DNA from: Prorocentrum cordatum
Lineage: Eukaryota
Direction of reading: 5' to 3'
NCBI GenBank assembly: GCA_963575745.1
Contig: CAUYUJ010000101.1
Coordinates: 1-64,000 of the forward strand
Length of the DNA stretch: 64,000 bases
Each line of letters opens with the position of its first letter. Position 1 is the first letter of the stretch. A program made the position numbers and the translations under genes. This document shows, in pieces, positions 6,791 through 54,715 of the stretch. Below the pieces are notes generated by a model. The model searched no databases. It was not told the DNA's origin and was given only the letters and a program-made list of their open reading frames with translations.

Positions 6791-8659
6791 CGGAACGAGC
6801 GAGCGGGCACACGATTGACGAGCCACTGCCAGCTGCCTGCGGCAAGTGCCGCCGCCGGCAGCTGCATGCGCGAGGGCAGCATCCCCTCGGGGGCGGGACA
6901 CGAAGAAGGCACCTCGCCGATGGAGGCCTCGCGGGTGGGGCCGGAGCGCAGAGGGACAACAAAAGTGAAGCCTTGGCTCCGCTCCCTCCTTTCTAGGGAG
7001 TCGAACTCTATATGCTCACGCGTTTCCCCGGGACATCGGGGAAAAAAGTATACACCACATCACCCCAGAGTCGTCCTTGACCCTCCAAAAAAACTGGGAT
7101 CGAAAAACAGCCCGCCACTGGTAATGTGGATGTTCCAGTTTCAGACTTTCCCCCTCGCTGTTCAAAGTTGGCCCTGGGCATTCGGGAGCACGGGCTCGGA
7201 AGGACAGCCAGAGTGGAACCCCCAGGGGCCTCCAGCAGGCCGGTCGCCAACTTTTGAGTCTGGGGGGGGGGGGGGGGGGCGAACACGGGGGCGAAAACGA
7301 AGGGGTTCCACTTGTCTACCCCCTTGCTGGAGCAGGTGGGGCCGGAGGATGGCGCCACATCGCCGACGCATCGCCGATGCATCATCGATGCACTGGCGAC
7401 GTGGGCGATGCATGGGCGACGTCGCTGTGGAGAACATCGGGCTCCACATCGAGCCGCATCGCCGATGCGTCGGCGATGCGGCGCGATGCTCCTGCCCCAT
7501 CTGCTCGGACCCCGTGTGGGAGGCCCAGGGCTGCTCGACCTGCCGAGGCGGGGGAGATGCCGTCAGCCTCCGGGCGTGGATAGCGGCAGGCCTTCCAGGA
7601 CGCCTTCGCCGAGCCCAACGCGCTCGCGCCTCGGCGAGGATGGCCTCGGGAGGGCGCCGGCGGACGCGGCGCAGGCCTGGTGAGGTCCGCCCGTCAGGTC
7701 GACGGCCTGCGAAGGCCCCCTCCTCCTCCTCCCCCTCCTCCTCCTCCTCCTCCTCCCTCCTCCTCCTCCTCCTCCTCCTCCTCCTCCTCCTCCTCCTCCT
7801 CCTCCTCCTCCTCCTCCTCCTCCTCCTCCTCTCAGACCGCCCAGCAGAGCCGCAGACGGCCCCGGGGGACCCCCCGAAGCGGCCGAGAGGGGCCCGGGAG
7901 GGCCCGAGGGGGGGCCACAGAGCAGCCCGAAGAGGACCCACGAGGCGGCCCGGCAATGGACGAGACGCCTGTCTGGCCGTGTCCCCCGCGAAGCGGTGTG
8001 AACCAGCCAGCCGCAGCAGGTCCTGAGCCGGAATGGCCGAGGAAGGCAGGGAGAGCAGGAGCCAACAGCAGCAGGAGAGGGAGGAGGGGGGGAGAGAGAG
8101 AGAGAGAGAGAGAGAGAGGAGGAGTAGCAGCGGCAGGGGGGAAGGAGACAATGAGAAGGGCAGGGAGCAGGTGGAGAATGGAGAACGAGCGGGAGGAGGG
8201 GAACGAGGGGGAGAAGCAGAAGCGAGGGGAGGGATCAGGAGCAGGAGCGGGAGCAGGGAAGGAGCAAGAGGTAGGGAAGGAGGCTGAGGAGGAGCCGGGT
8301 GCTGGAGGACAGAAGATTAACCCTCATGATAAGCACCCCGACAACCAGAGCCCTTCAGTAAACGCACTCGAAGAAAGAATCGAACAACATAGTGAACTCC
8401 CAGGATTGTTCTGCAAGAACCGGTAATGGGGATCGGGGTAGTCTTCCCTTTCTTGAAATACGGGGGAAGCGTGGCGCAGGGAAGGAGCACTTTTCGGAGC
8501 AGATCGTTCGCAACAGGGGACGCGCGCGCGCGTCGCAGCCCCCCGCGCCCCCTGAGCTGGACTGCGGCAGGCTTGAATATGCCTGATGCTCGCTTTCGCG
8601 CAATGCACACTGCTCCAGCCCCTTACTGGACGGCCAAGCTTGGCCTGGGGAGCACACGT

Positions 8660-9880
<1,221 letters not shown>

Positions 9881-12454: not shown

Positions 12455-14790
12455 ACGTCACTCCGCTGGGCCACCCAGCAGCCCTCGAAAGTGGTGACAG
12501 TTTCGCAGATCGCAGCCCTTCGGGGATGGCGAAGTCGAGCCTGAGTCTGCGTAGGACCCACTCCGCTGGCCCCCCAGCAGCCATCGAAAGTGGCGACGGT
12601 TTCGCAAATCGCAGTCCCCCAGGAATGGCGAGGTCGAATCTGAGTACCCCACTCCGCTGCCCCCCCCAGCAGCCCTCGAAACTGGCGACAATTTCGCAAA
12701 TCGCAGCCCCCCCCAGCGATGGCGAGGTCTAATCTGAGTCCCCGTGGGGGCTCACTCCGCTGGTCACCCCAGCAGCCCTCGGAAGTGGCGACAATTTCGC
12801 AGATCGCAGCCCCCCAGAGATGGCGAGGTCTAATCTGAGTCCCCGTGGGGCCTCACTCCGCTGGGCCCCCCAGCAGCCCTCGAAAGTGGCGACGGTTTCA
12901 CATCACAGATCGCAGCCCCCCAGGGATGGCGAGATCTAATCTGAGTCCCCGTGGTGCCTCACTCCGCTGGGCCCCCCAGCAGCCCTCGAAAGTGGCGACA
13001 GTTTCACAGATCGCAGCCCCCCCAGGGATGGCGAGGTCTAATCGGAGTCCCCGTCCCCGTGGTGCCTCACTTCGCTGGACCCACCAGCAGTCCTCGAAAG
13101 TGGCGACGGTTTCACAGATCGCAGCCCCCTCAGATGGCGAGGTCTAATCTGAATCCCCGTGGTGCCTCACTCCGCTGGACCCACCAGCAGCCCTCGAAAG
13201 TGGCGACAGTTTCACAGATCGCAGCCCCCCACAGATGGCGAGGTCTAATCTGAGCCCGCGTGGTGCCTCACTCCGCTGGACCCACCAGCAGCCCTCGAAA
13301 GTGGTGACAGTTTCACAGATCGCAGCCCCCCCCAGAGACGGCGAGGTCTAATCTGAGTCCCCGTGGTGCCTCACTCCGCTGGACCCACCAGCAGCCCTCG
13401 GAAGTGGCGACAGTTTCACAGATCGCAGCCCCCCAGGGATGGCAAGGTCTAATCTGAATCCCAGTGGTGCCTCACTCCGCTGGACCCACCAGCAGCCCTC
13501 GAAAGTGGCGACAGTTTCAGAGATCGCAGCCCCCCCAGGGATGGCGAGGTCGAATCTGAATCCCCGTGGTGCCTCACTCCGCTGGACCCACCAGCAGCCC
13601 TCGAAAGTGGCGACAGCTTCACAGATCGCAGCCCCCCACAGATGGCGATGTCTAATCTGAATCCCCGTGGTGTCTTACTCCGCTGGACCCACCAGCAGCC
13701 CTCGAAAGTGGCGACAGCTTCACAGATCGCAGCCCCCCCCCCCCCCAGAGATGGCGAGGTCTAATATGAATCCCCGTGGTGCCTCACTCCGCTGGACCCA
13801 CCAGCAGCCCTCAAAAGTGAGTGGCGACAGCTTCACAGATCGCAGCCCCCCAGCCCCCAGGGATGGCGAGGTCTAATCTGAATCCCCGTGGTGCCTCACC
13901 CCGCTGGACCCACCAGCAGCCCTCGAAAGTGGCGACAGTTTCACAGATCGTAGCCACCCCCAGAGATGGCGAGGTCTAATTTGAGTCCCCGTGGTGCCTC
14001 ACTGGACCCACCAGCAGACCTCGAAAGTGGCGACAGATTCACAGATCGCAGCCCCCCCAGGGATGGCAAGGTCTAATATGAATCCCCGTGGTGCCTCACT
14101 CCGCTGGACCCACCAGCAGCCCTCGAAAGTGGCGACAGTTTCAGAGATCGCAGCCCCCCCAGGGATGGCGAGGTCTAATATGAATCCCCGTGGTGCCTCA
14201 CTCCGCTGGACCCACCAGCAGCCCTCGAAAGTGGCGACAGTTTCACAGATCGCAGCCCCCCACAGATGGCGAGGTCTAATATGAATCCCAGTGGTGCCTT
14301 ACTCCGCTGGACCCACCAGCAGCCCTCGAAAGTGGCGACAGTTTCAGAGATCGCAGCCCCCCCCCCCCAGAGATGGCGAGGTCTAATCTGAATCCCAGTG
14401 GTGCCTCACTCCGCTGGACCCACCAGCAGCCCTCGAAAGTGGCGACAGCTTCACAGATCGCAGCCCCCCAGCCCCCAGGGATGGCGAGGTCTAATATGAA
14501 TCCCCGTGGTGCCTCACTCCGCTGGACCCACCAGCAGCCCTCGAAAGTGGCGACAGTTTCACAGATCGCAGCCACCCCCAGAGCTGGCGAGGTCTAATCT
14601 GAGTCCCCGTGGTGCCTCACTCCGCTGGACCCACCAGCAGACCTCGAAAGTGGCGACAGTTTCACAGATCGCAGTCCCCCAGCGATGGCGAGGTCTAATC
14701 TGAGTCCCCGTAAGACGTCACTCCGCTGAACCCCCCCAGCAGCCCTCGAAAGTGGCGACAGGTTCACAGATCGCAGCCCCCCAGGGATGC
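12455..14790 (+). repeat. Tandem array of ~100-102-bp units (~23 copies)
   Basis: Unit approximately GAAAGTGGCGACAGTTTCACAGATCGCAGCCCCCCAGRGATGGCGAGGTCTAATCTGARTCCCCGTGGTGCCTCACTCCGCTGGACCCACCAGCAGCCCTC. No unique spacers. Confidence 0.97.
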
Positions 14791-20900: not shown

Positions 20901-22139
20901 CCGAAGACGACGACCACGCCCAATCCACGGACCCACGGCGACGGCGGCGGCGGCGACCGCGAGCGCAGCGGCCAGCGGCGGCTGCGACGACCCACGACCC
21001 TGGCGGCTCGAAGACGGGTCCCCGAGGGATGTGCCCCCCGAGGACGCGCGGCCTCGACGAGGGAGGGCTCGGCTTGGGAGCCCACTCCTATCCTCGGGGC
21101 CGCCCCCTGCACCAGGACCCCGCCCTGCCATCGCCGACGCTGACGTGCGCCAGGCAAGGTCGGGCCGAGGACGGAGGAGCATCCTTCGAGAGCATGAGGC
21201 CCTCCGCCGGCCAACGCAGGGGAGCATTCGAGGGTGCCCTCCCCCAGGATGCGCAAGAACATCAACAAAAGAAAAGCACGAAGAACATGAGGGCACCCTC
21301 GGCGAGCCGACTTCGATCTTGCACCTCGGCCCGACTGCATGCTTTGACCACAGACGCGGGGGGGAAGGAGAGAAGGACAATGCTCGGTGGCAACTCATCG
21401 GAGCCTCGACGCACGTCTGGGCCTGGAGGGCCGGGCCAAGGCGGTGGGCGAGGGCAGGCAGCTGCACGCCGCTCGCCGTCTCCGGTGATGGGAGCGCGCT
21501 GCTCCTCACTGTCCTCCGTGGCAAGTTATGGGAGCCTGGCGTACCGTCCTAATTCCGTCGTAAGCGTCGAACTAGCGTCGATTAGCGGCTGGGAGCCGAT
21601 GCGATAGCCCAATATAGCGTCGATTCGAATCGATGAGCGTCGATTTAGCGTGGATTAGCGTCGATTTAGCGTCGACTAGCGTCGATTCGAAAGAGCCGAC
21701 AAGATGACACGGGAGGCTCCCACGACTTGCTACCGAGGACAGTGGCGGAGCAGCACGCTCACCTCACCGGAGACGCACACACTTAATAACGTCGCCTTCG
21801 GGCGTGCAGCTGCCTGCCCTCGCCCACTGCCTTGAAACCCGGCTCTCTGGGCTCAGACGTCCGTCGAGACGTGGTTTTTCTGGCCCGCGGCCCAAGAGGT
21901 CCCGAGCGCTTCCCTGGGGGCGGATCTTCTCCCCCGGTCCACTCCTCCTCCTCCTGCTCCTCCTCCTCCTCCTCCTCCTCGTCCTCCTCCTCCCTCCTCC
22001 CTCCTCCTCCTCCTCCTCCTCCTCCCTCCCCCTCCTCCTCCTCCTCCTCCTCCTCTCCTCCTCCTCCTCCTCCTCCTCCTCCTCCTCCTCCTGCTCTTCC
22101 TCCTCCTTCTCCTCCTCTTCTTCCTCCTCCTCCATTCCT

Positions 22140-22803
22140 TCTCCTGATAGATAACTTCTTCCTGTCGCACACCGAGGCCAGTTTTTAGGGCGGGCCAGGC
22201 GTTTCGCCTGAGACTTCCTCACCACTGCTGACCCTGAAGCTGAAAAATTGACAACAGCTTCACATGTGGAGGGCGGGTCGTTTTCAAAATGTGGCTCTCG
22301 CCCTGGCGCCGCGCACATTCGTTCTAAAAATACGCAAGAGCTTCACGGATTGAGGGCGGGCCGTTTTCAAAATGTGGCTCTCGCCTTAGCGCCGCGCACA
22401 TTCGTTTCCACAATTGCAAGAGTTTGACAATAATGAGGGCGCTCCTTTTGAAGAGATAACTCTCGCCTTAGCGCCGCGCACATTCGTCTTAAAAAAGTTG
22501 GCAAATGGAGTTCTGGAAGAATTCAAGATTATGAGGGTACAACAGTTACGTTGATTCGCGGTCATGAAGTCCCAGGAATGGCGTTCGGGCACGATTCAGA
22601 ATCGTCAAGACGCAACAGTCATGTTGATCCGTGGCGTTGAAATCCCGAGAATATTGTCTTGGCATGCTCTAGGGTATTCAAACGATTGTCTTCCAACGAG
22701 GCAGTTCCCTCAGTGGAAATGAACCGTTGCAGGGTCCTATGAAGAGGGAGCTCGGATGGAGGGTTTACTTCAACATCGTTGAAGCCTCTTGGGTTTACAC
22801 TGG
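22140..22803 (+). mobile_element. Dispersed repeat family C (SINE-like, bounded by (TCC)n tracts)
   Basis: Collinear homologue at ~51800-52500 and a 3'-part copy at ~51545-51720. Internal repeats CTCTCGCCTTAGCGCCGCGCACATTCG. All three copies end ...ACA(C/A)TGGT followed by (CCT)n. Confidence 0.7.
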
Positions 22804-23729
22804 TCCTCCTCCTCCTCCTCCTCCTCCTCCTCCTCCTCCTCCTCCGCCTCCTCCTCCTCCCCCGAGGCGGCATGGCCACAGACCTTCGGAGCTCCGCGCG
22901 GAGCTCCCTCGGATCGGCGCGGGTACATCCTCCCCGCTCCCTGGATCTCCACCCCAGGTCCACTCCCGATGGCCCCGGGGGCCCGAGCGGGGGACCCGCG
23001 ATGCCGACCGAGATCGGGAAGAACTGCCGGGAAAATAGCAAAAACATACAAAACAACAACAACAACAAAAAAACAAAAAAACGTGGCGTGACCCTCGGTG
23101 CGCGGCCTCAGGGAACCGCGAAGGGCCCAAATCTCCACGCGTGCGGGCTGGTGCCGGGGCCAGCCCTGCAAGCCCGCACCAAGACGCCGCTCCGACGAAA
23201 GGTCACCTGGACGTGCAGCCGAGAGGCCTCTCTCTGCTCACGCCCGCCTCCGCCTGCCCTCCGGCGGCCTCCGCCGCCGGAGCCGCCCTCCGCTTCACTC
23301 CGCCGCCCTCCGCTGGCCTTCCGCCGCCTTCCGCCGAGGAAGAGATGGCAACTCCTTCCATCGTCCAAGCTCGGGCCTCGGGCCTCTGGCGACCGCTCGG
23401 GGCGACCCCGGCACCCCCCGGGCACGCCCTCGGCGAGGCGCAGCTCGCGGCGCCGGGACACGACCGTGTCCACTGCTGCGGGGCCGTGCTCCGAGGACTC
23501 GGGGAGCGGCGGCTGTGGATGTCTGCACCGCCAGCGCGGGCGGGCGAAGATGTCCACACCCACCGCGATCCCAGGGAACGGCTCCGGAGCGATGGATGAG
23601 GGCATCTTCCGGCGGTGGGCACCTACTGGAAAGCATCCCGGGGGTGGATGGGAAAAGCCTCCCGAAGCAGGCGTCCGAAAGCCTCGATCGCCGGAGAAGT
23701 CTGCGAGCGTCGGTCGTCGGAGGCGTCGA

Positions 23730-29950: not shown

Positions 29951-31785
29951 AGCAGAATCATTGGTCATGATATGCTCATGAGGATGGTGGTGGCACGTGG
30001 CGTTGGGGCCCGAGGACGCCGCGCGTCATCGACGCATGCATCTGGCGCGGTCTTGGCATGGCGGACGTGCCGCCGCCACCCTGGCGCGGTTTACTGCCAG
30101 ATCGGCGCGGCCAAGTGGCCCCGCGTTGCAGTCGCGCAGAGGTCGCGCGAAAGGAAATCTTCCCGCGCGAATCTCCAATAAACCCAGCTACGGCAGGCTC
30201 ATGTCATGCCGACGTCGGTGTTGGTTTCTGACACTGCGGGGATCGTTCAACCCTTGAACGATCGGCCCTTTCCGAAACGTCACATCGTTCAACATCGACT
30301 GCTTCTGGGTCGCCAACGGCGTTCCCCGTTGAATGCTGGCGGCGGGGTCGCCGCGGGTCGACGCGACGCGAACCTACCGCAAGGCCCTTGCAGGACCCTG
30401 TTACAGAGGAGAGCTGCAAGACGGTGCTCTTCACTTCGGGGTGGACAATCCCCATGACTAGCTGGCTGGGCGTTGCGAGAGTACCCACCTGCTGCGTGGG
30501 AGCGGCCGGTATCTCTGCAGGGTTCGCGCGGTCGGCGCCGCAGTGGGGAAGCGGTCGGTGACGCCGGAGAGGGAGCGGTCGGTGCCGCTGCCAGGAGGCA
30601 GGATCACCAGAAAGAATCTCGAGCACCAGGGAAGCATCGAAACTGGAGGGTTTTCACGTGTCGACCCCTTGGAGGCGATACTCGCTCGGCACTTCGCCAG
30701 CGTGTCGTGCAGGCGCTGCTTCGATAACTCTTCTCTGGGTGCTCTAAATTATGTTTTGGATGTGGCCCTTAAGCACGATGGGAACAACATAGGTCTGGGA
30801 GTGCGCCCGCCGCCGCCAGACCTCCGTCGCAGACCCGACGTCACAATTGTTTCATGACGTCGACCCCCAGCGGTCGGGACCCGTTCCCCTGGACCGGCTT
30901 CTCGTCCTGAGTCGTGTCTTTGTTGACGGTCCCGAGAGCCAGAAGGGCCCCCTGAGGCACAAAATGACAAACAAAAAAAAAAAAGAAAAACCACCCCCAA
31001 AAAAATCGTCATGACTTTTGTCATGGCCCCAGGGGCCCAGGGGGTCTGGGGTGGGGGCCCAGTCCTGGCCGAGACGGCTGCTGCAATCACGGCCCCTCGT
31101 GGGGCCGAGGCCGCCCCCCCAACAAAAAACGCCCAGACCGAAAAAGAGAGCACCTCGTCGAAATCGGAGCTCTGCGCCACGGCTCGCCGCCAAGGCCGGC
31201 CACGGCGACGGCAAAACCGAAAGCCGACCTGCCCAACAGCAAAGCCGAAACCGACCGAATTCAATGCGAAGGATATGTCGACCCCTATATCCCAGGCGTC
31301 GTGGGGTTCTCGGATGGACCAAGAGGTTGGGGCCCAACCCATGCGAGGGGGGGCCTCCATTCTCGATTGGGGTGCGTCCGAGTAATTAGCCCCCCTGAGG
31401 TTGTTCCTCTCCTGTTCTTGGCCACTTCGTTTTTCGTCGGAAGAAATCGGGGGTTGGGATAGAAACATCGCCAGCGACGACAGGCCGCAAGTCGCCAAGA
31501 AGGGCGCAGCGACGCAGCTACGACACCACAACCGACCGAACCAAACCCGCAAGGGCCTGGGGCCCGGGGGGCAACGAGGTACCGACACCGCCGGTCCACG
31601 GACCTCCTCCAGGAGTGCGCCCTCTGACCAGAACTGCGAGGAGAATTCAGTCGCGGTGGACGAGCAGCGGTGTGGGCACCCCCAGACCCCCGACGTCTTG
31701 GGGGAGGAGGAGGAGGAGGAGGAGGAGGAGGAGGAGGAGGAGGAGGAGGAGGCGGAGCGTAGCTGAAGGAGTCCCACGTCCCACC

Positions 31786-34700
31786 CTACACATATCTGCA
31801 CTGCCCTCCCTGCCTCTCTCCTTGCGAGAGCACGCAGCAGGGGCCTTCACGAAGGGAAACTTCACCAGCCAGGGGGCCTGAGAGGGAGGCCTGCTCCTCG
31901 GCAGACAACACCTTGATCGCAGCGTAGTTGCGAGGCATGTCGTAATCCACGAATTGGAAGAGGGTGAGGTGGGGCGGGGACGAGGCGTCATCAGAGCGAG
32001 GGGAACGAGGGGGGAGATGAGTCGACTTCGACGGCGCCTGGGTTTGAGGCCCGCCAGCATATAATGCCTGCTCTTCGGCAGTGATTGCCCTGACCCTACT
32101 AGGGTCGCGGGGCATCTCATAATCAATGAAACGAAATTCGATGAGCTCGTCCTCCCGACCGAGTCCGAGCGAGGAGGGGGGAGCCTGAGGGATCGGCGAG
32201 AGAGGTGGGTGAGGCGACACCAGCCATGGAAGACCTATCGCTTCAGAGCCCCGAGCCTCACACGATGGGCCGTCCTCCTCGGGGTCTCCGCGGGCCGCCT
32301 CGATGGACTCACGAAGGGTGGGACGACGAAGAAGTGCCAGCTGCTGTCGTCCACGGAGAGGGAGCCTCAGAGCGATCTGCGCGGCAGGGACGAGCTCCAT
32401 CGCCCTCATGTATGTTGGTGGGGAGCTGTGCCGTGCCGCCATCAGCCGGTAGTGGTGGTAGCAAGCGATGAGAGCGGCAGGAGTCGGCCCCCCCAACCCG
32501 AGTCGATGCCGAATCTTACCTGGAAGATCTTCTCGAAGAGCGAGGGCGCCGAAGTGTAGACACCGATGGCACTCCATTAAATAATGTCGCATAGTATCTG
32601 GGCCGCCACAACCATAGATACACCACGCCTCACGTTGCATACGTGGGTGAGTGATCCAACCCCCTAAGTACGACCTCACACATATGAAGGCCCAAGATGC
32701 GGGCATTAGCTGCAATTGGCTGATTACCGAAGGCCAGCACACATCCCGAATACCAAAGTGCTTCTGCACGCGGGCGGAGAGCAGCTCTGGAAGTCTGTCA
32801 GGGAAGACTGCACGATGGAAGATGTCGGTGAATGCCGCCTGCCACTTGGGAGCTCGGGAACGTGGCAGTCCTTGTCCCTCAGCTGGCTCCGGAACTCTAC
32901 GGGCGAGGCTCCATGGGAGCGGACAAGGATTGGGTTCAGCTCGGAAGAACTCGACCACCTCTGCTGGGACTGACGACTCGCCGCCTTCCCATAGACTCAA
33001 TGCCATTCGCCCTCCCTCTTTCAGCACTTGGGACGAAGGGAAGCCCTTCGCTGCCTCTTCTAAGCGGCAGGCAAAAGGTGGTGCCCTCCAGAAGCTCGGG
33101 GCCAAGACGTCACTGGCGGCTTGGGAGAACGTGCCGTATTTCCAGAGGAGATCCCGATGTCGCTGCAGCTGCTCGCGCCATGTCGAACATGTGATCAGAG
33201 CTGCTCGAAGCCGTGCGGCTGCAGCAACGCAGAAGACAGAGCTGAACTTCGGGCCGTTCACTGTGCTGAGCGCGAAGCAGTCACCAGTCCGAAGCATGCT
33301 AGCAGGTGTGCGCATGATGCGAGCCAGCAGAAAGCGCTGCTGTTGCCCGACCCTCCACGGAAGAGGAACCAGCTGGGCCACGTACGACAGCGTAGAAGCA
33401 GCTCTCTGACGATAAAGAGCGGCAGCCGTGGAGAGAGCTGCACCCTGCGAAGAAATTGCCGTAGCACGAGTGGCATGCTTGAGAACAGGAGTCGCCCATT
33501 GACTATCATCAGTGGCTCCAGGCCCAATCTGAAATCCAAGATATGTACACACTGAAACAATCGCGAAGTCTGCCCAGGCGGGGTCGGCCCCCACAAGTTG
33601 GTGTCGAAGTAGAGTACCGTGCTCAGGCATAGACGGGTCACGAAGAGGAATCACATTGCATTTGGCAGGCTTAAGTCGTAGCTGAGCAAACCTCGAAGCA
33701 TGTCGAAATACTCGAGCCAAACGTGGATACGCTCTGTTGTGGAAGAGGACTGCCCCGAGATCATCCGCGCATGCACGAACCACACCCAAGAGACGCCCAC
33801 GTGCAACTAGACAGCGTTCTAAGTCCAGAAGGAACGGGTTGCTCGCGATCACATAGAGCGAACCACTCAGCGGACAGCCCTGAAGCACCCCTGAGTTCAT
33901 GTGGTAAAGGTACGTCGGAGAGTCGCCGACGAAGTAGCATGGAGTGCAGTGGTAGAGGGAGCGAAGAGCGCGGACCAGAGGGGCAGGAATACGGAGTCGG
34001 GCGAGACATTGGAATAGCCACTCCTGGGATACCGACGGGAAGGCCTGGGCAAAGTCAAACGCGATCAACGACGGTGCCTGGGAGGACGCTGTAGACATGA
34101 TACTGGCCGATCGAGCGTAGAGGTCCAAATCGACAATATTATCCAGAAAATTTCGCCTCCGAATAAAGCCCCTTTGGGATGGAGCCCCAATCTTCTGCGT
34201 CACCCAGCTCATAGTCTGGTTCAGCACACTGCACACCACTTTATTCGAGGAGTTCTTGAGCCCGAGCGGGCGTGTATCACCAGGGGCCCGTACAACCCCA
34301 CCATCGTCGGGATCAAGGGAAGGGGCCTTGGGGTCCTTCGGGAGGAAGACGGCCAGCAACGCAGTGAAATTGGAGGGCATATAGTTCCCAAGAGCAATCC
34401 AGCGAAGAACTTCGAGAAGGACCCTCGACCCCAAACCACACCTCCAGGCCGCATAGTGAAGCCCATCGGGGCCAGGAGCGGACCAATTCGACTGTTTCAG
34501 CGCACGTTCCACATCTCGAAGGATGGGTGGGCGAACCTCTGAGAAGTCCTCTGAGCTGCTGAATCGGTCTATGTATTTCTTGGCGACAGCGGGGACGGAG
34601 TGGGTCTTGGAGAACACGGGGCCCCAATAAGAGGCCAATGCGTCCACCATCGGGGCTTGGGAGGGAGGTGCATGTTCCGACGTCAGTGGGCCGCCCGCCA

Positions 34701-36372
34701 GCATCTCCGAAACCGAGATCATCTCATTCGCCTTGACCGATGCTAAGTACTTACGCCGACACAACGGATTCCATAGCTGTGCAGACCTAATGATAGCACG
34801 ACGACGCCCAGCCAGCCGAATCCTGACCGTGCTCGACGACGACTGGTTGATCTCTGACTCGAGAGCTTTCCTTCTGGATTCTGCTTCTTGCTGCTGCCAC
34901 AAACTATGGACATCATGGAAGCCACCAGGATCAATGAAGGACACAACCTCACCTTCTACACGTATGAGATTCTGCGTCCATGGGTGCTGGAATAGGAGAA
35001 CTCGGGCAAGACGGGCGTCGTTACGCCAGACACATCGCGCGACAGAACGAGAAATCATAGCCCGAGAGGTCAGTGATGATGGTGCAGCACGGCAGATGGC
35101 ATTGCGTGCAAGGAGCCCAGCAGCTTGTCGGACAGCAGTAGCAGCAGCGAGCATGCGCGGCGGGTCGAAGGCGAGATCCTCTATGCCCACCTGGGATTCC
35201 ATGTGGGAGACTAGCTGAGCGTAAATCTTGTCTTTGTACACCCAACGCGGGAGGGGCCTCTGTCGTTTCGTTCTGGAGTGATCTCGTGGGCGCCAGACGA
35301 CCTCCAGGGGCGAGTGGTCAGAGATACCCCGATGGGCCAACTCATGAGGTTCATCACGGACCGAAACTAGCTGAGCGGTTTGACACAGGAGCCATGGCGG
35401 CGAGGCGACAAAGAGACGATCAATTTTGGACTCGCATGCGGTCGAGGCGTGCCAGTGGGTTGGCGCCTCCGAGGCGAGCTCCGTCATCTCCCTGAAGATC
35501 TTCAGCCAGCTCGAGTCGCCAGGACGGGACGCCCGAGTAGAGCCAACCCGCAAGGTGGAGTCGCCCCGCTGGGCACCATCCGCCTGTACCGAAGCAGGTG
35601 CGGCCTGCCTCCCCTGTGAAGCCCCCATCGCCGCGGCACTGAGGGAGGCTGCGGGTGGTTGGGAGGATGCAGGAGACGAAGCCGAGGAAGAGGACGGACT
35701 CGGAGAACATGGCCCAGAGGGTGGTGTGCAGGTGGCCGGTGTGGTCCTCGATGCCGCCGAACTCGGAGTGCATGTGGCCGTGGGGTTGTGACTTTGCAGG
35801 GCTGAATCCTGCCCCCCACGGCCTGACGAACGTGGCGTACTTGTGTGATCCTCTCCACGATGGTGCTCGATGGGCTTCGCAGGAATGTTGAAGTCGCCCG
35901 TGAGGATCACCGTGCACTTCAGCGGATCATCCCGCACTCGCCGAAGCTGAGATTTTATACATGTTTGGATCTCCTTCAGTCCAGCAGCGTCGATGGCAAA
36001 ATTGTGCACGTTCCAGTGGTAGATGGTGAAGTCAACCGCTGAATTATGGATAGTAACCAGAAGAACCCGACCAGCGACCAAGCTCTTCCCCTTGGCTCGA
36101 ACGCGTGGGTCCTTGGGAACGAGAGTGGCAACGCCTCCAGTCCGCGGCATCCCAGACTCAGAAACGAAGCAGGAATGCGAAGTACAATGAATCCTCTGAA
36201 GAGCTTCCTCCATAGCATATTCACCACCGTGGATCTCCTGTATCGCCACTACTTTGCCAGCACCCAACAGATTGCTCAAGTAGCTGAGTTTCCTGCTCAA
36301 AATCGCTGGTCTGTAGTGTAACAGGGCCCCTGAATTCCAGGTCGTGAAAGCTAAGAATCCCACGCCAAACAT
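31786..36372 (-). CDS. LINE ORF2: APE-like endonuclease + reverse transcriptase + C-terminal CCHC zinc knuckle (1528 aa from ATG 36372)
   Basis: EN motifs: TTWNSG, AIQEIH, GRVLLV, NVHNFA, LTGDFN, SKIDRLFV, ISDHSP. RT motifs: SAPGPDGL, TRPLGLKN, QRGF, FDFAQAFPSV, GVLQGCPLSG, ACADD, YLGF. C-x3-C-x7-H-x4-C at 32569-32622. No stops or frameshifts. The ATG lies 4 nt after the ORF1 stop. Confidence 0.95.
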   Translation of the reverse strand: MFGVGFLAFTTWNSGALLHYRPAILSRKLSYLSNLLGAGKVVAIQEIHGGEYAMEEALQRIHCTSHSCFVSESGMPRTGGVATLVPKDPRVRAKGKSLVAGRVLLVTIHNSAVDFTIYHWNVHNFAIDAAGLKEIQTCIKSQLRRVRDDPLKCTVILTGDFNIPAKPIEHHRGEDHTSTPRSSGRGGQDSALQSHNPTATCTPSSAASRTTPATCTPPSGPCSPSPSSSSASSPASSQPPAASLSAAAMGASQGRQAAPASVQADGAQRGDSTLRVGSTRASRPGDSSWLKIFREMTELASEAPTHWHASTACESKIDRLFVASPPWLLCQTAQLVSVRDEPHELAHRGISDHSPLEVVWRPRDHSRTKRQRPLPRWVYKDKIYAQLVSHMESQVGIEDLAFDPPRMLAAATAVRQAAGLLARNAICRAAPSSLTSRAMISRSVARCVWRNDARLARVLLFQHPWTQNLIRVEGEVVSFIDPGGFHDVHSLWQQQEAESRRKALESEINQSSSSTVRIRLAGRRRAIIRSAQLWNPLCRRKYLASVKANEMISVSEMLAGGPLTSEHAPPSQAPMVDALASYWGPVFSKTHSVPAVAKKYIDRFSSSEDFSEVRPPILRDVERALKQSNWSAPGPDGLHYAAWRCGLGSRVLLEVLRWIALGNYMPSNFTALLAVFLPKDPKAPSLDPDDGGVVRAPGDTRPLGLKNSSNKVVCSVLNQTMSWVTQKIGAPSQRGFIRRRNFLDNIVDLDLYARSASIMSTASSQAPSLIAFDFAQAFPSVSQEWLFQCLARLRIPAPLVRALRSLYHCTPCYFVGDSPTYLYHMNSGVLQGCPLSGSLYVIASNPFLLDLERCLVARGRLLGVVRACADDLGAVLFHNRAYPRLARVFRHASRFAQLRLKPAKCNVIPLRDPSMPEHGTLLRHQLVGADPAWADFAIVSVCTYLGFQIGPGATDDSQWATPVLKHATRATAISSQGAALSTAAALYRQRAASTLSYVAQLVPLPWRVGQQQRFLLARIMRTPASMLRTGDCFALSTVNGPKFSSVFCVAAAARLRAALITCSTWREQLQRHRDLLWKYGTFSQAASDVLAPSFWRAPPFACRLEEAAKGFPSSQVLKEGGRMALSLWEGGESSVPAEVVEFFRAEPNPCPLPWSLARRVPEPAEGQGLPRSRAPKWQAAFTDIFHRAVFPDRLPELLSARVQKHFGIRDVCWPSVISQLQLMPASWAFICVRSYLGGWITHPRMQREAWCIYGCGGPDTMRHYLMECHRCLHFGALALREDLPGKIRHRLGLGGPTPAALIACYHHYRLMAARHSSPPTYMRAMELVPAAQIALRLPLRGRQQLALLRRPTLRESIEAARGDPEEDGPSCEARGSEAIGLPWLVSPHPPLSPIPQAPPSSLGLGREDELIEFRFIDYEMPRDPSRVRAITAEEQALYAGGPQTQAPSKSTHLPPRSPRSDDASSPPHLTLFQFVDYDMPRNYAAIKVLSAEEQASLSGPLAGEVSLREGPCCVLSQGERQGGQCRYV

Positions 36373-36376
36373 CTCG

Positions 36377-37765
36377 TTACCCACTCCACCGTACTTCACG
36401 TGTGTCGAAGACCTGGCGAACCAGCTCATTGGCCTCCTCCCTGGACAAGGAATTGTCGGCAAGTGTAGAGAGGTTCCATTCCACTTTCGGCGTTCTGCTT
36501 GCAGGTAATGGGAGCACTCGCGCCAGGGGCTCCCACTTGGCCATGAGCTGACCATTCTCCTTGTCGAGGAAAGTGCGGATGCCACGGTCGGCGAGACACC
36601 TCTGCAGCTTCTTGCATGCAATCTCTGTGGCAACCATCTTCTTGTTTTTGTCCGCGGAAATGTGGATCGGTACTGATTCAGTGCCCACATCAACGTGGAA
36701 TGCGCGCCATGACCCGTTTGGCAGACGGAGTTGCTGCTGGGCCTGACTCCTTCTCGACGAACGGGTAGCTTCCATGGGGCCTTGAAATGCGAGAGTGAAG
36801 GATTTGGCGACATCATCTCCGTGAAGTTCCACCCCTTCCCCGAGAGGGACATTTGCTTCAGTGAGCCAAGGGGCCAATGCCGCCGCCACAGCGTTCTTAG
36901 CGACGGCTGATGACGCCCGCACAGTGAGGATGGTGAGGTCCACGTCCCTGTCCCATTCTGGATTCGGAACCACAGGAGGACGTGGCTTCGCCTTTGCGAG
37001 GTCCAGCTCTTTCTCCAAATGCGATAGACGATGAGCGAGACCCGCCACGGTGCTGTCGAGAAGGTCCGAACGCGCGCGCTGTGCATGGACCTCCCCATCG
37101 ACACGTCGAAGCTGCTGATTGAAGCGCTCCTCATACTTTTCCATGAGCGGTACTGTGGCCGCGCTGAGTGCGGCAGGAAGCTGAGCCAGGATGGTCTCCA
37201 TCGCCTTCTGTGTGAAGGCCTGCATGGCCTCCGCCTGGAAAGAGTCCACAGATTGGGCAACATTGCTGCCTCCGTCATGCGGTGTGGTTCCATTGGACAT
37301 AGCTGCTGTAGCCCAGGGATCAGGGGCACGGCCTTCAGCGGGGGTGCCAGGAGTCGCCCATGGCCTCGATGCAGGCGGAGTCGGCCATGGTGACGGAGAG
37401 GGCGAGGCCTTCGCACCTCCAGCTGGGACTGGCCCTTCGTCAGCTGGGATGGGGGTGGCGATGCCGTAATGCTGTGTGCCACAAGAGCTGTCGACCATGA
37501 CGGGCGATGCGCCACGGCCAGCACTGCGGGACCGCCGAGAGCCCTCCGCCGATGCGTCACTGGCGGCGGGGAGGTATCGGTCCCGCGTCCGAACGCGATC
37601 ACGTTCACGGACGTCAGGAGCGCCGTGAGAATCCCGAAGATCACGCAGCCGCGCCGGTGGAGAAGAGGCACGTGGAGTGGACGATGCAGAACGTGATGAG
37701 GCCGTCGGCGCCCGTCGCTCCTCCTTGGCCTTGCGGGACTTCCGTTCATGACGACTGCCGCCCAT
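36377..37765 (-). CDS. LINE ORF1 (putative nucleic-acid-binding protein, 462 aa from first ATG)
   Basis: Open frame directly upstream of ORF2. It has an R/S-rich N-terminus, a heptad coiled-coil-like segment (EKYEERFNQQLRRVDGEVHAQRARSDLLDSTVAGLAHRLSHLEKELDLAK) and then a globular alpha/beta-looking region, an architecture reminiscent of L1-type ORF1p (inference). Confidence 0.85.
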   Translation of the reverse strand: MGGSRHERKSRKAKEERRAPTASSRSASSTPRASSPPARLRDLRDSHGAPDVRERDRVRTRDRYLPAASDASAEGSRRSRSAGRGASPVMVDSSCGTQHYGIATPIPADEGPVPAGGAKASPSPSPWPTPPASRPWATPGTPAEGRAPDPWATAAMSNGTTPHDGGSNVAQSVDSFQAEAMQAFTQKAMETILAQLPAALSAATVPLMEKYEERFNQQLRRVDGEVHAQRARSDLLDSTVAGLAHRLSHLEKELDLAKAKPRPPVVPNPEWDRDVDLTILTVRASSAVAKNAVAAALAPWLTEANVPLGEGVELHGDDVAKSFTLAFQGPMEATRSSRRSQAQQQLRLPNGSWRAFHVDVGTESVPIHISADKNKKMVATEIACKKLQRCLADRGIRTFLDKENGQLMAKWEPLARVLPLPASRTPKVEWNLSTLADNSLSREEANELVRQVFDTREVRWSG

Positions 37766-37912
37766 GTGCGCCTGCAAGCACTAAGCGCGGCGAGACTCAA
37801 GACGGCAGCGCGGAGCTCCCCGCCCAGGTCCTGAGAGAGGGTGTCGGGCTGAACAGCCCTGGCACTGCCGCGGACTAGCGGTATCCACTTGTTCCCCTGC
37901 GGAACTCAACAT

Positions 37913-37933
37913 CTTGAGCCAAATGGCTACGGA
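37913..37933 (-). other. Relic dinoflagellate spliced leader (DinoSL)
   Basis: The minus strand reads TCCGTAGCCATTTGGCTCAAG versus canonical DCCGTAGCCATTTTGGCTCAAG (one T fewer). It is immediately followed by ATG and lies exactly at the LINE 5' boundary. Confidence 0.93.
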
Positions 37934-38300
37934 GGAGGAGGAGGAGGAGGAGGAGGCGGAGGAGGAGGAGGAGAAGGAGGCGGAGGAGGAGGAGGAGGAG
38001 GAGGAGGAGGAGGAGGAGGAGGAGGAGGAGGGGAGGAGGAGGGGGGGGAGGAGGCGGAGGAGGAGGAGGAGGAGGAGGAGGAGGACGATGAGGAGAAGGA
38101 GGCGTGGGAAGAGGAGGAGGAAGAAGAGGAGGAGGGGGAGGAGGAGGCGTTTCGTGACGGCCCCGCGGCCCAGCGAGGGGGCCCCCGGGGGCCGAACATG
38201 GAGACAGGCCTCCCGTCGGGATGTTTCATGGCCCGATGGGGTCTGGGCCCCAGACATGCTCGCGTCGCAAAAAAACAAAATATATACATATATATAAGGA

Positions 38301-38680
<380 letters not shown>

Positions 38681-51544: not shown

Positions 51545-52500
51545 TGACGAAGTGGCGCTGGAATGCCGAGAATAATGTTTTGGCATGCTTCAAAGTCTTC
51601 AAACGATTGTCTTCCAACGACACAGGTCCCTCTGTGGAAGTGAACCGTTTTAGGGGGCTCTGAGGGGGAGCTTGGGGGGTTATTCCGACATCGTTGGTAA
51701 CTGTTGGGCTGACACTGGTCCTCCTCCTCCTCCTCCTCCTCCTCCTCCCCCTCCTCCTCTTCCTCCTCCTCCTCCTCCTCCTCCTCCTCCTCCTCCTCCC
51801 CTTTTTCCTATAAGTAATTTCTCCCTGTCGCACCCCGAGGCAAGTTTTTAGGGCGGTCTGGGCGTTTCGCCTGAGATTTCCTGACCATTTCTGACCCTGA
51901 AGCTTTAAATATGGCAACACCTTCATAGACGGAGGAAGGGTGGTTATCAAACTGTGGCTCTCGCCTTAGCGCCGCGCACATTCGCTTTAACACGTTGCAC
52001 GAGTGTCACGGGGTAAGGGCAGGTCGTTTTCAAAGTGTGGTTCCCGCATTCGTCTTAAACACTGCAACAGCTTCACGGATTGAGGACGGCTCCTTTTCAA
52101 AATGCTTATCTCGCCTTAGCGCCGCGCACATTCGTTGTAAAAATTGCAAGAGTTTCACGGAACCATGGCTGTTCCTTGCTCCGTTTCGAAAGTTGACTCT
52201 CGCCTTAGCGCCGCGCACATTCATTCCAAAAAGTTGTAAGGGTTCCGCGGGGTCCCATGATCGACGTGCCAGAAATGGTAGTATGAGGGCGCAACCGATA
52301 CGTTGACTCGGGGTGCTAAAGTCCCAGGACTAGCGTTCTGGCACGGTTCAGGGTCGTCAAGAAGCAAGCAACAGTCATGTTGATTCGTGGCGTTGAAATC
52401 CCGAGCAACAGTCATGTTGATTCGTGGCGTTGATTGTGAGGAGGGAGCTTGGGGACAGGGTGTATTCCCACATCGTTGGTGACCCGTGGATTTACAATGG
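51545..52500 (+). mobile_element. Family C: partial + near-full copy in tandem, each followed by (CCT)n
   Basis: Shares TTGTCTTCCAACGA..GTGGAARTGAACCGTT, CCTGTCGCAC.CCGAGGC and the internal CTCGCCTTAGCGCCGCGCACATTC repeats with 22140-22803. Confidence 0.7.
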
Positions 52501-52779
52501 TCCTCCTCCTCCTCCTCCGCCTCCTCTTCATGATCTTCGTCCTCCTCCTCCTCCTCCTCCTGCTGCTTCTCCCCCTGCTCCTTCTCCTCGTCCTCCTCCT
52601 CTTCCTCCTCCTCTTCCTCCTCCCCCTCTTATCGTTATTCGTCTTAGTAATACTGCTAATGTTAATTCTCATTCCCAACCCTCCTTGGTTGGGTATTCGT
52701 TTTGAATAGAGGGGTGTGGTCGCGTCCTTCTCCTCCCGCCCCCCCTGTGGTCGCCGTCCCTGGGGGGCTACGACCTGCG

Positions 52780-54490
52780 GGGGCTGCGATCTGCGAAACT
52801 GTCGCCACTTTCGAGGGCTGCCGGGGAGGCCAGCAGAGAGGGCACTCACCGCGGACCCAAACGGGACCTCGCCGTCCCTGGGGGGCTGCGACCTGTGAAA
52901 CTGTCGCCACTTTCGAGGGCTGCTGGGGAGGCCAGCAGAGAGGGCATTCACCGCGGACCCAAACGGGACCTCGCCGTCCCTGGGGGGCTGCGATCTGCGA
53001 AACTGTCGCCACTTTCGAGGGCTGCTGGGGAGGCCAGCAGAGAGGGCACCCACCGCGGACCCAAACGGCACCTCGCCGTTACTGGGGGGCTGCGATCCGC
53101 GAAACTGTCGCCACTTTCGAGGGCTACTGGGGAGGCCAGCAGAGAGGGCACTCACCGCAGACCCAAACGGGACCTCGCCGTCCCTGGGGGGCTGCGATCC
53201 GCGAAACTGTCGCCACGTTCGAGGGCTGCTAGGGAGGCCAACAGAGAGGGTACTCACTGCGGACCCAAACGGGACCTCGCCGTCCCTGGGGGCTGCGATC
53301 TGCGAAACTGTCGCCACTTTCGAGTGCTGTTGGGGAGGCCAGCAGAGAGGGCACCCACCGCGGACCCAAACTGGACCTCGCCGTCCCTGGGGGGATGCGA
53401 TCTGCGAAACTGTCGCCACTTTCGAGGGCTGCTGGGGAGGCCAGCAGAGAGGGTACTCACCGCGGACCCAAACGGGACCTCGCCGTCCCTGGGGGGCTGC
53501 GATCTGCGAAACTGTTGCCACTTTCGAGGGCTGCTGGGGAGGCCAGCAGAGAGGGCACTCACCGCGGACCCAAACGGGACCTCGCCGTCCCTGGGGGGCT
53601 GCGATCTGCGAAACTGTGGCCACTTTCGAGGGCTGCTGGGGGGGCCAACAGAGAGGGCACTCACCGCGCACCCAAACGGGACCTCGCCGTTCCTGGGGGG
53701 CTGCGATCTGCGAAACTGTTGCCACTTTCGAGGGCTGCTAGGGAGGCCAGCAGAGAGGGCACTCATCGCGGACCCAAACTGGACCTCGCCGTCCCTGGGG
53801 GGCTGCGATCTGCAAAACTGTCGCTAATTTCGAAGGCTGCTGGGGAGGCCAGCAGAGAGGGTACCCACCGTGGACCCAAACGGGACCTCGCCGTCCCTGG
53901 AGGGGCTGCGATCCGCGAAACTGTCGCCACGTTCGAGGGCTGCTGGGGAGGCCAACAGAGAGGGCACTCACCGCGGACCCTAACGGAACCTCGCCGTCCC
54001 TGGGGGGCTGAGATCTGCGAAACTGTCGCCACTTTCGAGGGCTGCTGGTGGGTCCTGCGGAGTGAGGCACCGCGCGGATCTGAGTGGGACCTCGCCGCCA
54101 CTGGGGGGCTGCGATCTGCGAAACTGTCGCCACTTTCGAGGGCTGCTGTTGGGTCCTGCGGAGTGAGGCACCGCGCGGACCTGAGCGTGACCTCGCCGTC
54201 CCTGGGGGGCTGCGATCTGCGAAACTGTCGCAACTTTCGAAGGCTGATGGTGGGTCCTGCGGAGTGAGGCACCGCGCGGACCCAAACGGGACCTCGCCGT
54301 TCCTGGGGGCTGCGATCTGCGAAACTGTCGCCACGTTCGAAGGATGCTGGTGGGTCCTGCGGAATAAAGCACCGCGCGGACCTGAGCGGGACCTCGCCGT
54401 CCCTAGGGGGCTGCGATCTGCAAAACTGTCGCCACTTTCGAGGGCTGCTGGTGGGTCCAGCGGAGCGAGGCACCAGGCAGATCTGAGCGG
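52780..54490 (-). repeat. Tandem array of ~102-bp units (~17 copies), same family as 12455-14790 in opposite orientation
   Basis: GGGCTGCGATCTGCGAAACTGTCGCCACTTTCGAGGGCTGCTGG recurs every ~102 bp and is the reverse complement of the first array's core. Confidence 0.97.
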
Positions 54491-54615: not shown

Positions 54616-54715
54616 NNNNNNNNNNNNNNNNNNNNNNNNNNNNNNNNNNNNNNNNNNNNNNNNNNNNNNNNNNNNNNNNNNNNNNNNNNNNNNNNNNNNN
54701 NNNNNNNNNNNNNNN
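54616..54715. other. Assembly gap (100 N)
   Basis: Run of 100 n. Confidence 1.

What the first reader, a model, noticed from the sequence alone, without database searches (positions are those of the whole stretch)
31703..31785. No poly(A): 28-nt 3' UTR runs into (TCC)n, with a candidate 28-31-bp TSD
Seen: (GGA)8GGCGGAG abuts the element on the left (31727-31757) and recurs on the right (37931-37961, its first 3 nt overlapping the SL), including the same C interruption. Inference: either sequence-specific insertion into (GGA)n with a TSD, or the element carries a (TCC)n tail. Both would link this family to the extreme abundance of GAG/CTC tracts in the window. Caveat: GGCGGAG interruptions are common in these tracts, so the match could be chance.
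Basis: partly seen in the sequence, partly recalled or inferred. Interest (0 to 1): 0.75.

Follow-up and report, generated by a model that had tools for sequence, protein, structure and literature searches.

The report
LINE inserted in a TCC microsatellite
A complete jumping gene in a dinoflagellate-type genome ends without a poly(A) tail and sits inside a simple TCC repeat, part of which it probably duplicated when it landed; repeat-seeking of this kind is known, but this repeat is not among the described targets I could find.

Summary
A minus-strand LINE has one intact 2004-aa ORF with endonuclease and reverse transcriptase. It starts with a 21-nt spliced-leader relic and stops at 31786-31788. 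A 28-nt 3' UTR with no A-run follows and runs into CTCCGCC(TCC)16. (GGA)8GGCGGAG is present at 31727-31757 and 37931-37961.

The match is modestly better than chance. Of 63 pure (GGA)>=5 runs in the window, only these two are followed by GGCGGAG. The right-hand tract is locally rich in GGC, and a second register (52-55 nt, 2 mismatches) fits as well.

Best reading (about 0.55): insertion by target-primed reverse transcription into a (TCC)n/(GGA)n tract in sense-TCC orientation, with a 28-31-bp target-site duplication and no poly(A).

Support from elsewhere:
- Distant spliced-leader-headed relatives in metagenome contigs lie next to (AT)n, one with an exact 25-nt duplication.
- One relative with a homologous 3' terminus has no repeat, so there the repeat comes from the target and is not a tail.
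- A second, SINE-like family in the window also ends in (TCC)n (3 of 3 copies).

I could fetch no other copy of this family, so an element-borne tail is not excluded. This scan noted TCC-embedded LINEs before on other pieces of this genome. It is a new member of a known kind.

The parts
37913..37933 (-). Spliced-leader relic, the first 21 nt of the element. Its first three letters, TCC, cannot be told from the flanking repeat unit.
   Evidence: It differs by one missing T from the leader seen at L001 118-138 and in the loose ends.
31786..37800 (-). Single intact ORF of 2004 aa, stop included. The frame is open from 37905 and the first ATG is at 37749-37747.
35761..36342 (-). APE-type endonuclease domain, the part matched by Pfam (residues 487-680). 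The SDH motif lies further on, after a Ser/Pro/Ala-rich insertion of roughly 100 aa.
   Evidence: Exo_endo_phos, E 2.9e-4, 21.1 bits, below the 24.5 cut-off. The motifs QEIHG, GDFN, IDR and SDH match the consensus of relatives.
33529..34284 (-). Reverse transcriptase domain (residues 1173-1424), with active site ADD.
   Evidence: RVT_1, E 2.4e-15, 57.2 bits, above the cut-off. A246, D247 and D248 are invariant in alignment A1.
32569..32622 (-). C-terminal Cys-x3-Cys-x7-His-x4-Cys motif.
   Evidence: C628, C632, H640 and C645 are nearly invariant in A1. The residues can be read.
31758..31785 (-). 28-nt 3' UTR with no poly(A) and no structure beyond chance.
   Evidence: Fold z-score +1.07.
31727..31757 (+). 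3'-side copy of the candidate TSD, (GGA)8GGCGGAG. Under this reading the plus strand was nicked after 31757 and primed the cDNA.
37931..37961 (+). 5'-side copy of the candidate TSD (28 nt, from 37934, if the leader keeps its own TCC).
31703..31757 (+). The whole GGA tract at the element's 3' end: (GGA)16GGCGGAG. In the alternative register all of it is the duplicate.
37931..38147 (+). 217-nt interrupted GGA tract directly 5' of the element, read as the rest of the target microsatellite.

Best explanation
This is a full-length, probably recently inserted copy of a multicopy APE-type LINE. It integrated by target-primed reverse transcription into a pre-existing (TCC)n/(GGA)n microsatellite, with TCC on its sense strand.

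Shown: the anatomy, namely leader relic, one intact endonuclease-plus-RT ORF, 28-nt 3' UTR, no poly(A), and the same repeat on the same strand on both sides.

Inferred: the purine (GGA) strand was nicked between GGCGGAG and GAGGAGG. Its 3'-OH primed cDNA synthesis right at the end of the 3' UTR, so either the template had no poly(A) or the tail was not copied. The TCC strand was cut 28-31 nt away, so (GGA)7-8GGCGGAG was duplicated. The cDNA end, the complement of the leader's TCC, joined the repeat by 3-nt microhomology.

Open: whether the repeat is chosen by the endonuclease's sequence preference or by pairing of a read-through (UCC)n RNA end with the GGA primer.
For: Element identity. RVT_1 scores E 2.4e-15. 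Exo_endo_phos gives a weak match, but the catalytic motifs are present. The 2004-aa ORF is intact.

Multicopy. In run X1, 660 contigs lay on the element at 85-100% identity, 105 of them at 99% or more. Summed depth was 42.6-174.8 over 31888-37362, against 3.6 in the left flank.

Same-strand repeat on both sides. GGA/TCC tracts cover only 4.7% of the window, so a random insertion point would fall in a sense-TCC tract about 2% of the time.

Shared interruption. 2 of 63 runs of >=5 units, and 6 of 133 runs of >=3 units, are followed by GGCGGAG.

Relatives (20-35% aa identity). Six leader-headed 5' ends were found in 80 loci. Five of them lie within 16 nt of a short tandem repeat: (AT)n four times and a 9-10-nt AT-rich repeat once. 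(AT)n of >=6 units covers 0.84% of the 60,269 nt in the seven loci of contig prefix Ga0099797; one of the four (AT)n cases (L007) and the 9-10-nt case (L001) carry another prefix, for which no background was computed.
- L003 element 2 has its stop at 8139-8141, a 41-nt UTR, then (AT)12. The 25 nt before its leader are identical to the 25 nt after its 3' end.
- L037 has a homologous 3' terminus but is followed by non-repeat DNA. In that lineage the repeat is therefore not a tail.

Dinoflagellate LINEs with TSDs and without poly(A) are in print (PMC5890265, legend of Fig. 1e, passage seen).

A second, unrelated repeat family of about 690 bp in this window ends in (TCC)n in 3 of 3 copies. Two of the three also have TCC directly 5'.
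Against: Only one copy of this family was seen, so neither target specificity nor the exact 3' end is established.

The duplicate is low-complexity. Only the GGC interruption is informative, and the right-hand tract has about five GGCs in 217 nt, which may raise the local chance of a match to about one in three. A 52-55-nt register with 2 mismatches fits equally well.

The CTCCGCC next to the UTR could belong to the element.

One SINE-like copy, truncated at about 51552, has TCC only on its 3' side.

None of the 80 metagenome loci has a sense-strand (TCC)>=5. Relatives L037 and L021 are not at a microsatellite. L006's 3' end is ambiguous: either 38-50 nt after the stop, or at 9043.

A single ORF with a very short 3' UTR ending in a simple repeat is also the RTE-type tail pattern (PMC2887409, abstract).
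Confidence: 0.55

Rival explanations
1. Element-borne microsatellite tail. The family carries CTCCGCC(TCC)n as its own 3' end, made by read-through or by RT slippage as in RTE-, I- and CR1-type LINEs. The (UCC)n RNA end pairs with a nicked GGA strand, so copies land in or beside older TCC tracts. The shared GGCGGAG is then partly templated by the RNA and partly coincidence.
For: The architecture fits: a single endonuclease-plus-RT ORF, a 28-nt UTR and then a simple repeat, as described for RTE elements (PMC2887409, abstract). The 3' tract is a pure run of 16 units, as a young tail would be. SINE-like copy b has TCC only at its 3' end. All 3 SINE-like copies and the LINE end in TCC.
Against: A tail does not explain the 217-nt same-strand tract directly 5' of the leader, nor the same interruption at matching distance. 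In the related lineage a homologous 3' terminus occurs with and without a repeat.
Confidence: 0.25
2. No specificity. The element landed by chance in a repeat-rich, gene-poor region, and the 28-31-nt match is a coincidence between two parts of one GGC-rich tract. The true TSD is short or absent.
For: Perfect microsatellites make up 10.2% of the window, and the AGG class is the largest at 3.3%. The right-hand tract has several GGC interruptions. Two registers fit. None of 36 ORFs tested outside the element reached a Pfam curated cut-off (five weak sub-threshold matches).
Against: Sense-strand tracts cover about 2% of the window, yet the LINE and 2 of 3 SINE-like copies have TCC on both sides. 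Away from this element, GGCGGAG follows 0 of 61 runs of >=5 units. Leader-headed relatives show the same habit with (AT)n.
Confidence: 0.1
3. Structure-driven rather than sequence-driven targeting. The machinery uses unwound or non-B DNA, or pre-existing breaks, at microsatellites: H-DNA-forming (TCC)n/(GGA)n here and cruciform-prone (AT)n in relatives. That would account for long, variable duplications.
For: Related elements sit in chemically unlike repeats, TCC here and AT in L003, L006 and L007. Candidate duplications are long, 25-55 nt. That these repeats form non-B DNA is general knowledge, recalled and not tested.
Against: Other abundant repeats in this window (ACG, ACT, ATC and AAC classes) carry none of the four elements seen. 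The endonuclease has all catalytic motifs. Nothing here tests DNA structure.
Confidence: 0.1

Closest known systems
Microsatellite-targeting APE-type LINEs of animals: Waldo (ACAY)n, Mino (AC)n, Kibi (TC)n, Koshi (TTC)n, Dong (TAA)n (list in PMC3812793, passage read; primary papers not read)
   Same: An APE-type LINE flanked on both sides by one microsatellite in one orientation. The 3' end joins the repeat directly, without poly(A).
   Different: The repeat here is (TCC)n/(GGA)n, which is not in that list, and the host is a dinoflagellate-type protist. The element starts with a spliced leader. The candidate duplication is long, 28-55 nt. Only one copy was seen, and clade membership (R1 or Tx1) was not tested.
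RTE-clade LINEs with simple-repeat 3' ends (PMC2887409, abstract read)
   Same: [quoted passage not shown]
   Different: Here the same repeat also lies directly 5' of the element. The ORF is about twice as long and carries a C-terminal CCHC motif (that these two points set it apart from RTE is recalled, not from the abstract read). RTE membership was not tested.
SymbioLINE-Dnmt of Symbiodinium (PMC5890265, passages read)
   Same: Dinoflagellate LINEs with flanking duplications, conserved UTRs and no poly(A) tail.
   Different: No DNMT domain and no separate ORF1 were found here. That paper holds neither 'microsatellite' nor 'spliced leader' (0 occurrences each).
DinoSL-relic retrocopies of dinoflagellates (PMC6050394 and PMC12014239, passages read)
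   Same: A DNA-encoded spliced leader at the exact 5' end of a retro-copied sequence.
   Different: Here the copied RNA is the retrotransposon's own. PMC6050394 states that the kind of element mediating retroposition is unknown and leans towards LTR elements.

Membership tests
APE-type non-LTR retrotransposon (LINE) | Reverse transcriptase domain of the non-LTR type | tested here: met
   RVT_1 E 2.4e-15, 57.2 bits against a cut-off of 29.6. The best solved relative is human LINE-1 ORF2p, E 2e-4.
APE-type non-LTR retrotransposon (LINE) | APE-like endonuclease N-terminal to the RT, with catalytic motifs | tested here: met
   Exo_endo_phos scores 21.1 bits, below the 24.5 cut-off. The motifs QEIHG, GDFN, IDR and SDH are present and match the consensus of 39 relatives. 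A search of solved structures with the endonuclease part alone found nothing.
APE-type non-LTR retrotransposon (LINE) | No long terminal repeats; many copies | tested here: met
   Self-BLAST of 31650-38000 gave only the identity hit. In run X1, 660 contigs lie on the element.
Microsatellite-specific APE-type LINEs (Waldo, Mino, Kibi, Koshi, Dong) | This copy is flanked on both sides by one repeat on one strand | tested here: met
Microsatellite-specific APE-type LINEs (Waldo, Mino, Kibi, Koshi, Dong) | Most or all copies of the family sit in that repeat in the same orientation | not testable with these tools
   No genome is held. There is no other copy in the window. The read-laying tool skipped the repeats. 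Collection scans found no close copy.
Microsatellite-specific APE-type LINEs (Waldo, Mino, Kibi, Koshi, Dong) | Membership of the R1 or Tx1 clade | not tested
   No reference sequences of these clades were available from a tool.
Microsatellite-specific APE-type LINEs (Waldo, Mino, Kibi, Koshi, Dong) | The endonuclease cuts the repeat specifically | not testable with these tools
   This needs a nicking assay.
LINEs with element-borne simple-repeat tails (RTE type) | Very short 3' UTR ending in simple-repeat units | tested here: met
   A 28-nt UTR followed by CTCCGCC(TCC)16.
LINEs with element-borne simple-repeat tails (RTE type) | Repeat at the 3' end only, with the 5' flank unrelated to it | tested here: not met
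   A 217-nt same-strand tract abuts the 5' end.
DinoSL-relic retrocopy | Spliced-leader sequence encoded in DNA at the 5' end | tested here: met
   37933-37913, one T short of the leader in L001 118-138.
SymbioLINE-Dnmt | Cytosine methyltransferase ORF upstream of the RT ORF | tested here: not met
   Only RVT_1 and Exo_endo_phos were found in the 2004-aa product. There is no room for a second ORF between the leader and the ORF.

The most novel reading that the evidence does not exclude
A clade of spliced-leader-capped dinoflagellate LINEs integrates preferentially at microsatellites, (TCC)n in this genome and (AT)n in relatives, with unusually long duplications of 25-55 bp. Each jump would then split a tract and add repeat units. 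It would also give the new copy an upstream polypyrimidine tract suited to leader trans-splicing. Under this reading LINE activity both feeds on and multiplies the simple-repeat tracts that fill these genomes. The same machinery would be the source of leader-tagged retrogenes.
Probability: 0.2. Interest if true: 0.7.

Novelty: new member of a known kind. Interest (0 to 1): 0.45.

Why it matters
If copies of this family regularly home into (TCC)n, this would be a repeat-targeting LINE from a dinoflagellate-type protist, outside the insects, fishes and snail in the list of PMC3812793, with a repeat target not in that list. It would also tie part of the simple-repeat load of a dinoflagellate genome to retrotransposition. 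Together with the leader at its 5' end, it gives a concrete candidate for the enzyme that copies leader-capped RNAs back into DNA; the 2018 review (PMC6050394, passage) calls that enzyme unknown. As a single copy the finding is only suggestive. The absence of poly(A) on dinoflagellate LINEs is already in print (PMC5890265).

Tried and rejected
- **Whole genome:** none is held.
- **Other copies in the window:** none by blastn, nor by tblastn with the element's protein and 39 relatives.
- **Sequencing runs:** no RNA holder was listed. Laying four runs gave no junction information, because the tool skipped 31691-31762 and 37922-37990. No contig joined across the element, so no empty site was seen, and 83 loose-end rows were not shown.
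- **Metagenome scan:** 80 loci, all distant at 20-46% identity. None has a sense-strand (TCC)>=5; one, L067, has (GGA)6.
- **Exact 23-nt 3' UTR pattern:** 0 hits in genome contigs and in viral contigs.
- **Protein-pattern scans of viral contigs and genome contigs:** no relative.
- **Earlier notes by sequence or look-alike:** nothing.
- **Alternative-frame peptide across the 3' junction, to catch other copies' junctions:** no candidate.
- **Rfam on 31400-38400:** only two chance-level hits.
- **Fold of the last 123 nt:** no better than shuffles, so no 3' stem-loop.
- **Endonuclease part against solved structures:** nothing.
- **SINE-like family against the LINE:** no shared 3' end.
- **Pfam on 36 other window ORFs:** no match reached a curated cut-off; five weak sub-threshold matches in four ORFs.
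- **A clean TSD for L003 element 1:** none with <=2 mismatches.
- **Literature search on Prorocentrum genome repeats:** returned nothing relevant.
- **Papers on GGA or TCC repeat targeting by non-LTR elements, and on dinoflagellate LINEs with microsatellites:** none describes such targeting in the listings I saw.

Full report
**What is there.** The finding lies at the 3' end of a minus-strand element.
- On the sense strand the element starts at 37933-37913 with a 21-nt spliced-leader relic. It is one T short of the leader seen intact at L001 118-138 and in loose ends of public contigs.
- One intact ORF runs 37800..31786 and gives 2004 aa. The frame is open from 37905 and the first ATG is at 37749.
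- Pfam finds RVT_1 at residues 1173-1424 (E 2.4e-15). It also finds Exo_endo_phos at 487-680 (E 2.9e-4, 21.1 bits, below the curated 24.5).
- The endonuclease motifs QEIHG, GDFN, IDR and SDH are present. They match the consensus of 39 relatives, as do the RT motif ADD and a C-terminal CCHC motif.
- The best solved relative is human LINE-1 ORF2p, only weakly (E 2e-4).
- This is an APE-type LINE. The nearest named proteins come from Prorocentrum cordatum and Polarella glacialis records, at about 30% identity.

**The observation.** After the stop (31788-31786) come 28 nt of 3' UTR (31785-31758), then CTCCGCC(TCC)16 (31757-31703), then unique DNA.
- There is no run of four or more A in the last 210 nt.
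- The last 123 nt fold no better than shuffles (z +1.07).
- On the plus strand (GGA)8GGCGGAG stands at 31727-31757 and again at 37931-37961. The leader's first TCC overlaps the second copy, so the duplicate is 28 or 31 nt. All stated coordinates are right.

**Is it more than chance?** GGA/TCC tracts cover 4.7% of the window, 33 on one strand and 31 on the other.
- Of 63 pure (GGA)>=5 runs, only the two at this element are followed by GGCGGAG.
- With runs of >=3 units, 6 of 133 are, that is 4 of 131 others. Window-wide the coincidence is about 3%.
- Three things weaken this. The (GGA)8 part carries no information, because the left run has 16 units. The 217-nt right-hand tract has about five GGC interruptions by my count, so the local chance may be near one in three. 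A second register, in which the whole 55-nt 3' tract matches the 5' flank over 52-55 nt with 2 mismatches, fits as well.
- I take the duplication as favoured, not proven.

**Copies of this family.** No genome is held and the window has no second copy.
- In run X1, 660 contigs lie on the element: 105 at 99% or more, 186 at 95-99%, 216 at 90-95% and 153 below 90%. Summed depth is 42.6-174.8 over 31888-37362, against 3.6 in the left flank. The family is multicopy.
- The tool skipped both repeats, so no junction and no empty site could be seen.
- Scans of other collections found no close copy.

**Relatives.** A profile scan of metagenome contigs gave 80 loci at 20-46% identity. None has a sense-strand (TCC)>=5.
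- Six leader-headed 5' ends were found among them: L001, L003 twice, L006 and L037, plus a truncated relic in L007.
- Five of the six lie within 16 nt of a short tandem repeat, (AT)n four times and a 9-10-nt AT-rich repeat once. (AT)n of >=6 units covers 0.84% of the 60,269 nt in the seven loci of contig prefix Ga0099797; L007 and L001 carry another prefix, for which no background was computed.
- L003 element 2 is the clearest case. Its stop is at 8139-8141, a 41-nt UTR follows, then (AT)12. The 25 nt before the leader equal the 25 nt after the 3' end.
- L037 has a homologous 3' terminus, but non-repeat DNA follows it and non-repeat DNA precedes its leader. In that lineage the repeat is therefore not an obligatory tail.
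- L006 matches over 35 nt with one mismatch, including five or six non-repeat letters. Its 3' end is ambiguous, because an A-rich terminus followed by a short TA run also lies 38-50 nt after its stop.
- L021 has no (AT)n of >=6 units anywhere in its 9.8 kb.
- These relatives show a preference for microsatellites, not a strict rule.

**Other evidence in the window.** A second family, unrelated to the LINE, is a SINE-like repeat of about 690 bp with internal 83-bp repeats. It ends directly in (TCC)n in 3 of 3 copies, at 22804, 51719 and 52501.
- Copies a and c also have TCC directly 5'.
- Copy b, truncated at about 51552, does not.
- I found this family by looking at tract flanks, so it is not an unbiased sample.

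**Mechanism.** Best reading, about 0.55: target-primed reverse transcription into the repeat.
- The GGA strand is nicked at GGCGGAG^GAGGAGG.
- The cDNA starts at the last base of the UTR.
- A second cut on the TCC strand falls 28-31 nt away.
- The 5' end is joined through the leader's TCC.
- Rivals are an element-borne tail that pairs with GGA (0.25), chance (0.1), and structure-driven rather than sequence-driven choice of repeats (0.1).

**What is known.**
- Microsatellite-targeting APE-type LINEs are established in animals: Waldo, Mino, Kibi, Koshi and Dong (PMC3812793, passage). TCC/GGA is not on that list.
- Searches showed no paper describing a TCC- or GGA-targeting LINE, or a dinoflagellate LINE in microsatellites.
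- Dinoflagellate LINEs with TSDs and no poly(A) are in print (PMC5890265, Fig. 1e legend). That paper holds neither 'microsatellite' nor 'spliced leader'.
- RTE elements with simple-repeat 3' ends are the model for the tail rival (PMC2887409, abstract).
- Earlier notes of this scan on other pieces of this genome report LINEs inside (TCC)n in the same orientation: e1-7625186, e1-7625585 and e1-7629228. I could not see their DNA, and by sequence look-up they are not this family.

**Verdict.** The TSD reading is favoured but rests on one copy in low-complexity DNA. This is a new member of a known kind, of moderate interest.

Noticed in passing
window 22134-22803, 51552-51718, 51800-52500 (+): A SINE-like repeat of about 690 bp with internal 83-bp tandem repeats and no leader. 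All three copies end in ...TGG followed at once by (TCC)n. Two also have TCC directly 5', and one is 5'-truncated. It shares no sequence with the LINE.
   Followed up: partly
window 37867-37904 (-): A 38-nt block of the 5' UTR sits under very high summed depth in that bin in runs X1, X2 and X3. In other contigs it is joined to an intact leader through different 8-nt linkers. It looks like a leader-proximal module shared by several elements.
   Followed up: no
L003 2939-3011 and L006 2615-2686: Two LINEs that do not otherwise align at the DNA level share their first 73 nt (leader plus about 52 nt) at 88% identity. All four leaders in the loci of contig prefix Ga0099797 read T where L001 and the window have G at the seventh letter.
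   Followed up: no
window 35380-35700 (-), residues about 690-800: A Ser/Pro/Ala-rich insertion of roughly 100 aa lies in the endonuclease between GDFN and the next conserved motif, and is absent from the consensus of relatives. One X1 contig skips 203 nt here (35553-35755).
   Followed up: no
window 12458-14789 and 52774-54473: Two arrays of a satellite of about 101 bp. By eye from the repeat table, their consensus units are reverse complements of each other.
   Followed up: no
window, whole: The region is gene-poor. Perfect microsatellites make up 10.2% of it; the AGG, ACG and ACT classes are the largest. None of 36 long ORFs outside the element reached a Pfam curated cut-off. A 100-N gap lies at 54616-54715.
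   Followed up: partly
L003 8142-8182, L037 7182-7234: The related LINEs L003 element 2 and L037 end in a shared A-rich terminal motif after a UTR of 41 or 53 nt and have no long poly(A); L006 has a comparable A-run about 40 nt after its stop. This suggests a defined 3' terminus recognised by the RT.
   Followed up: partly
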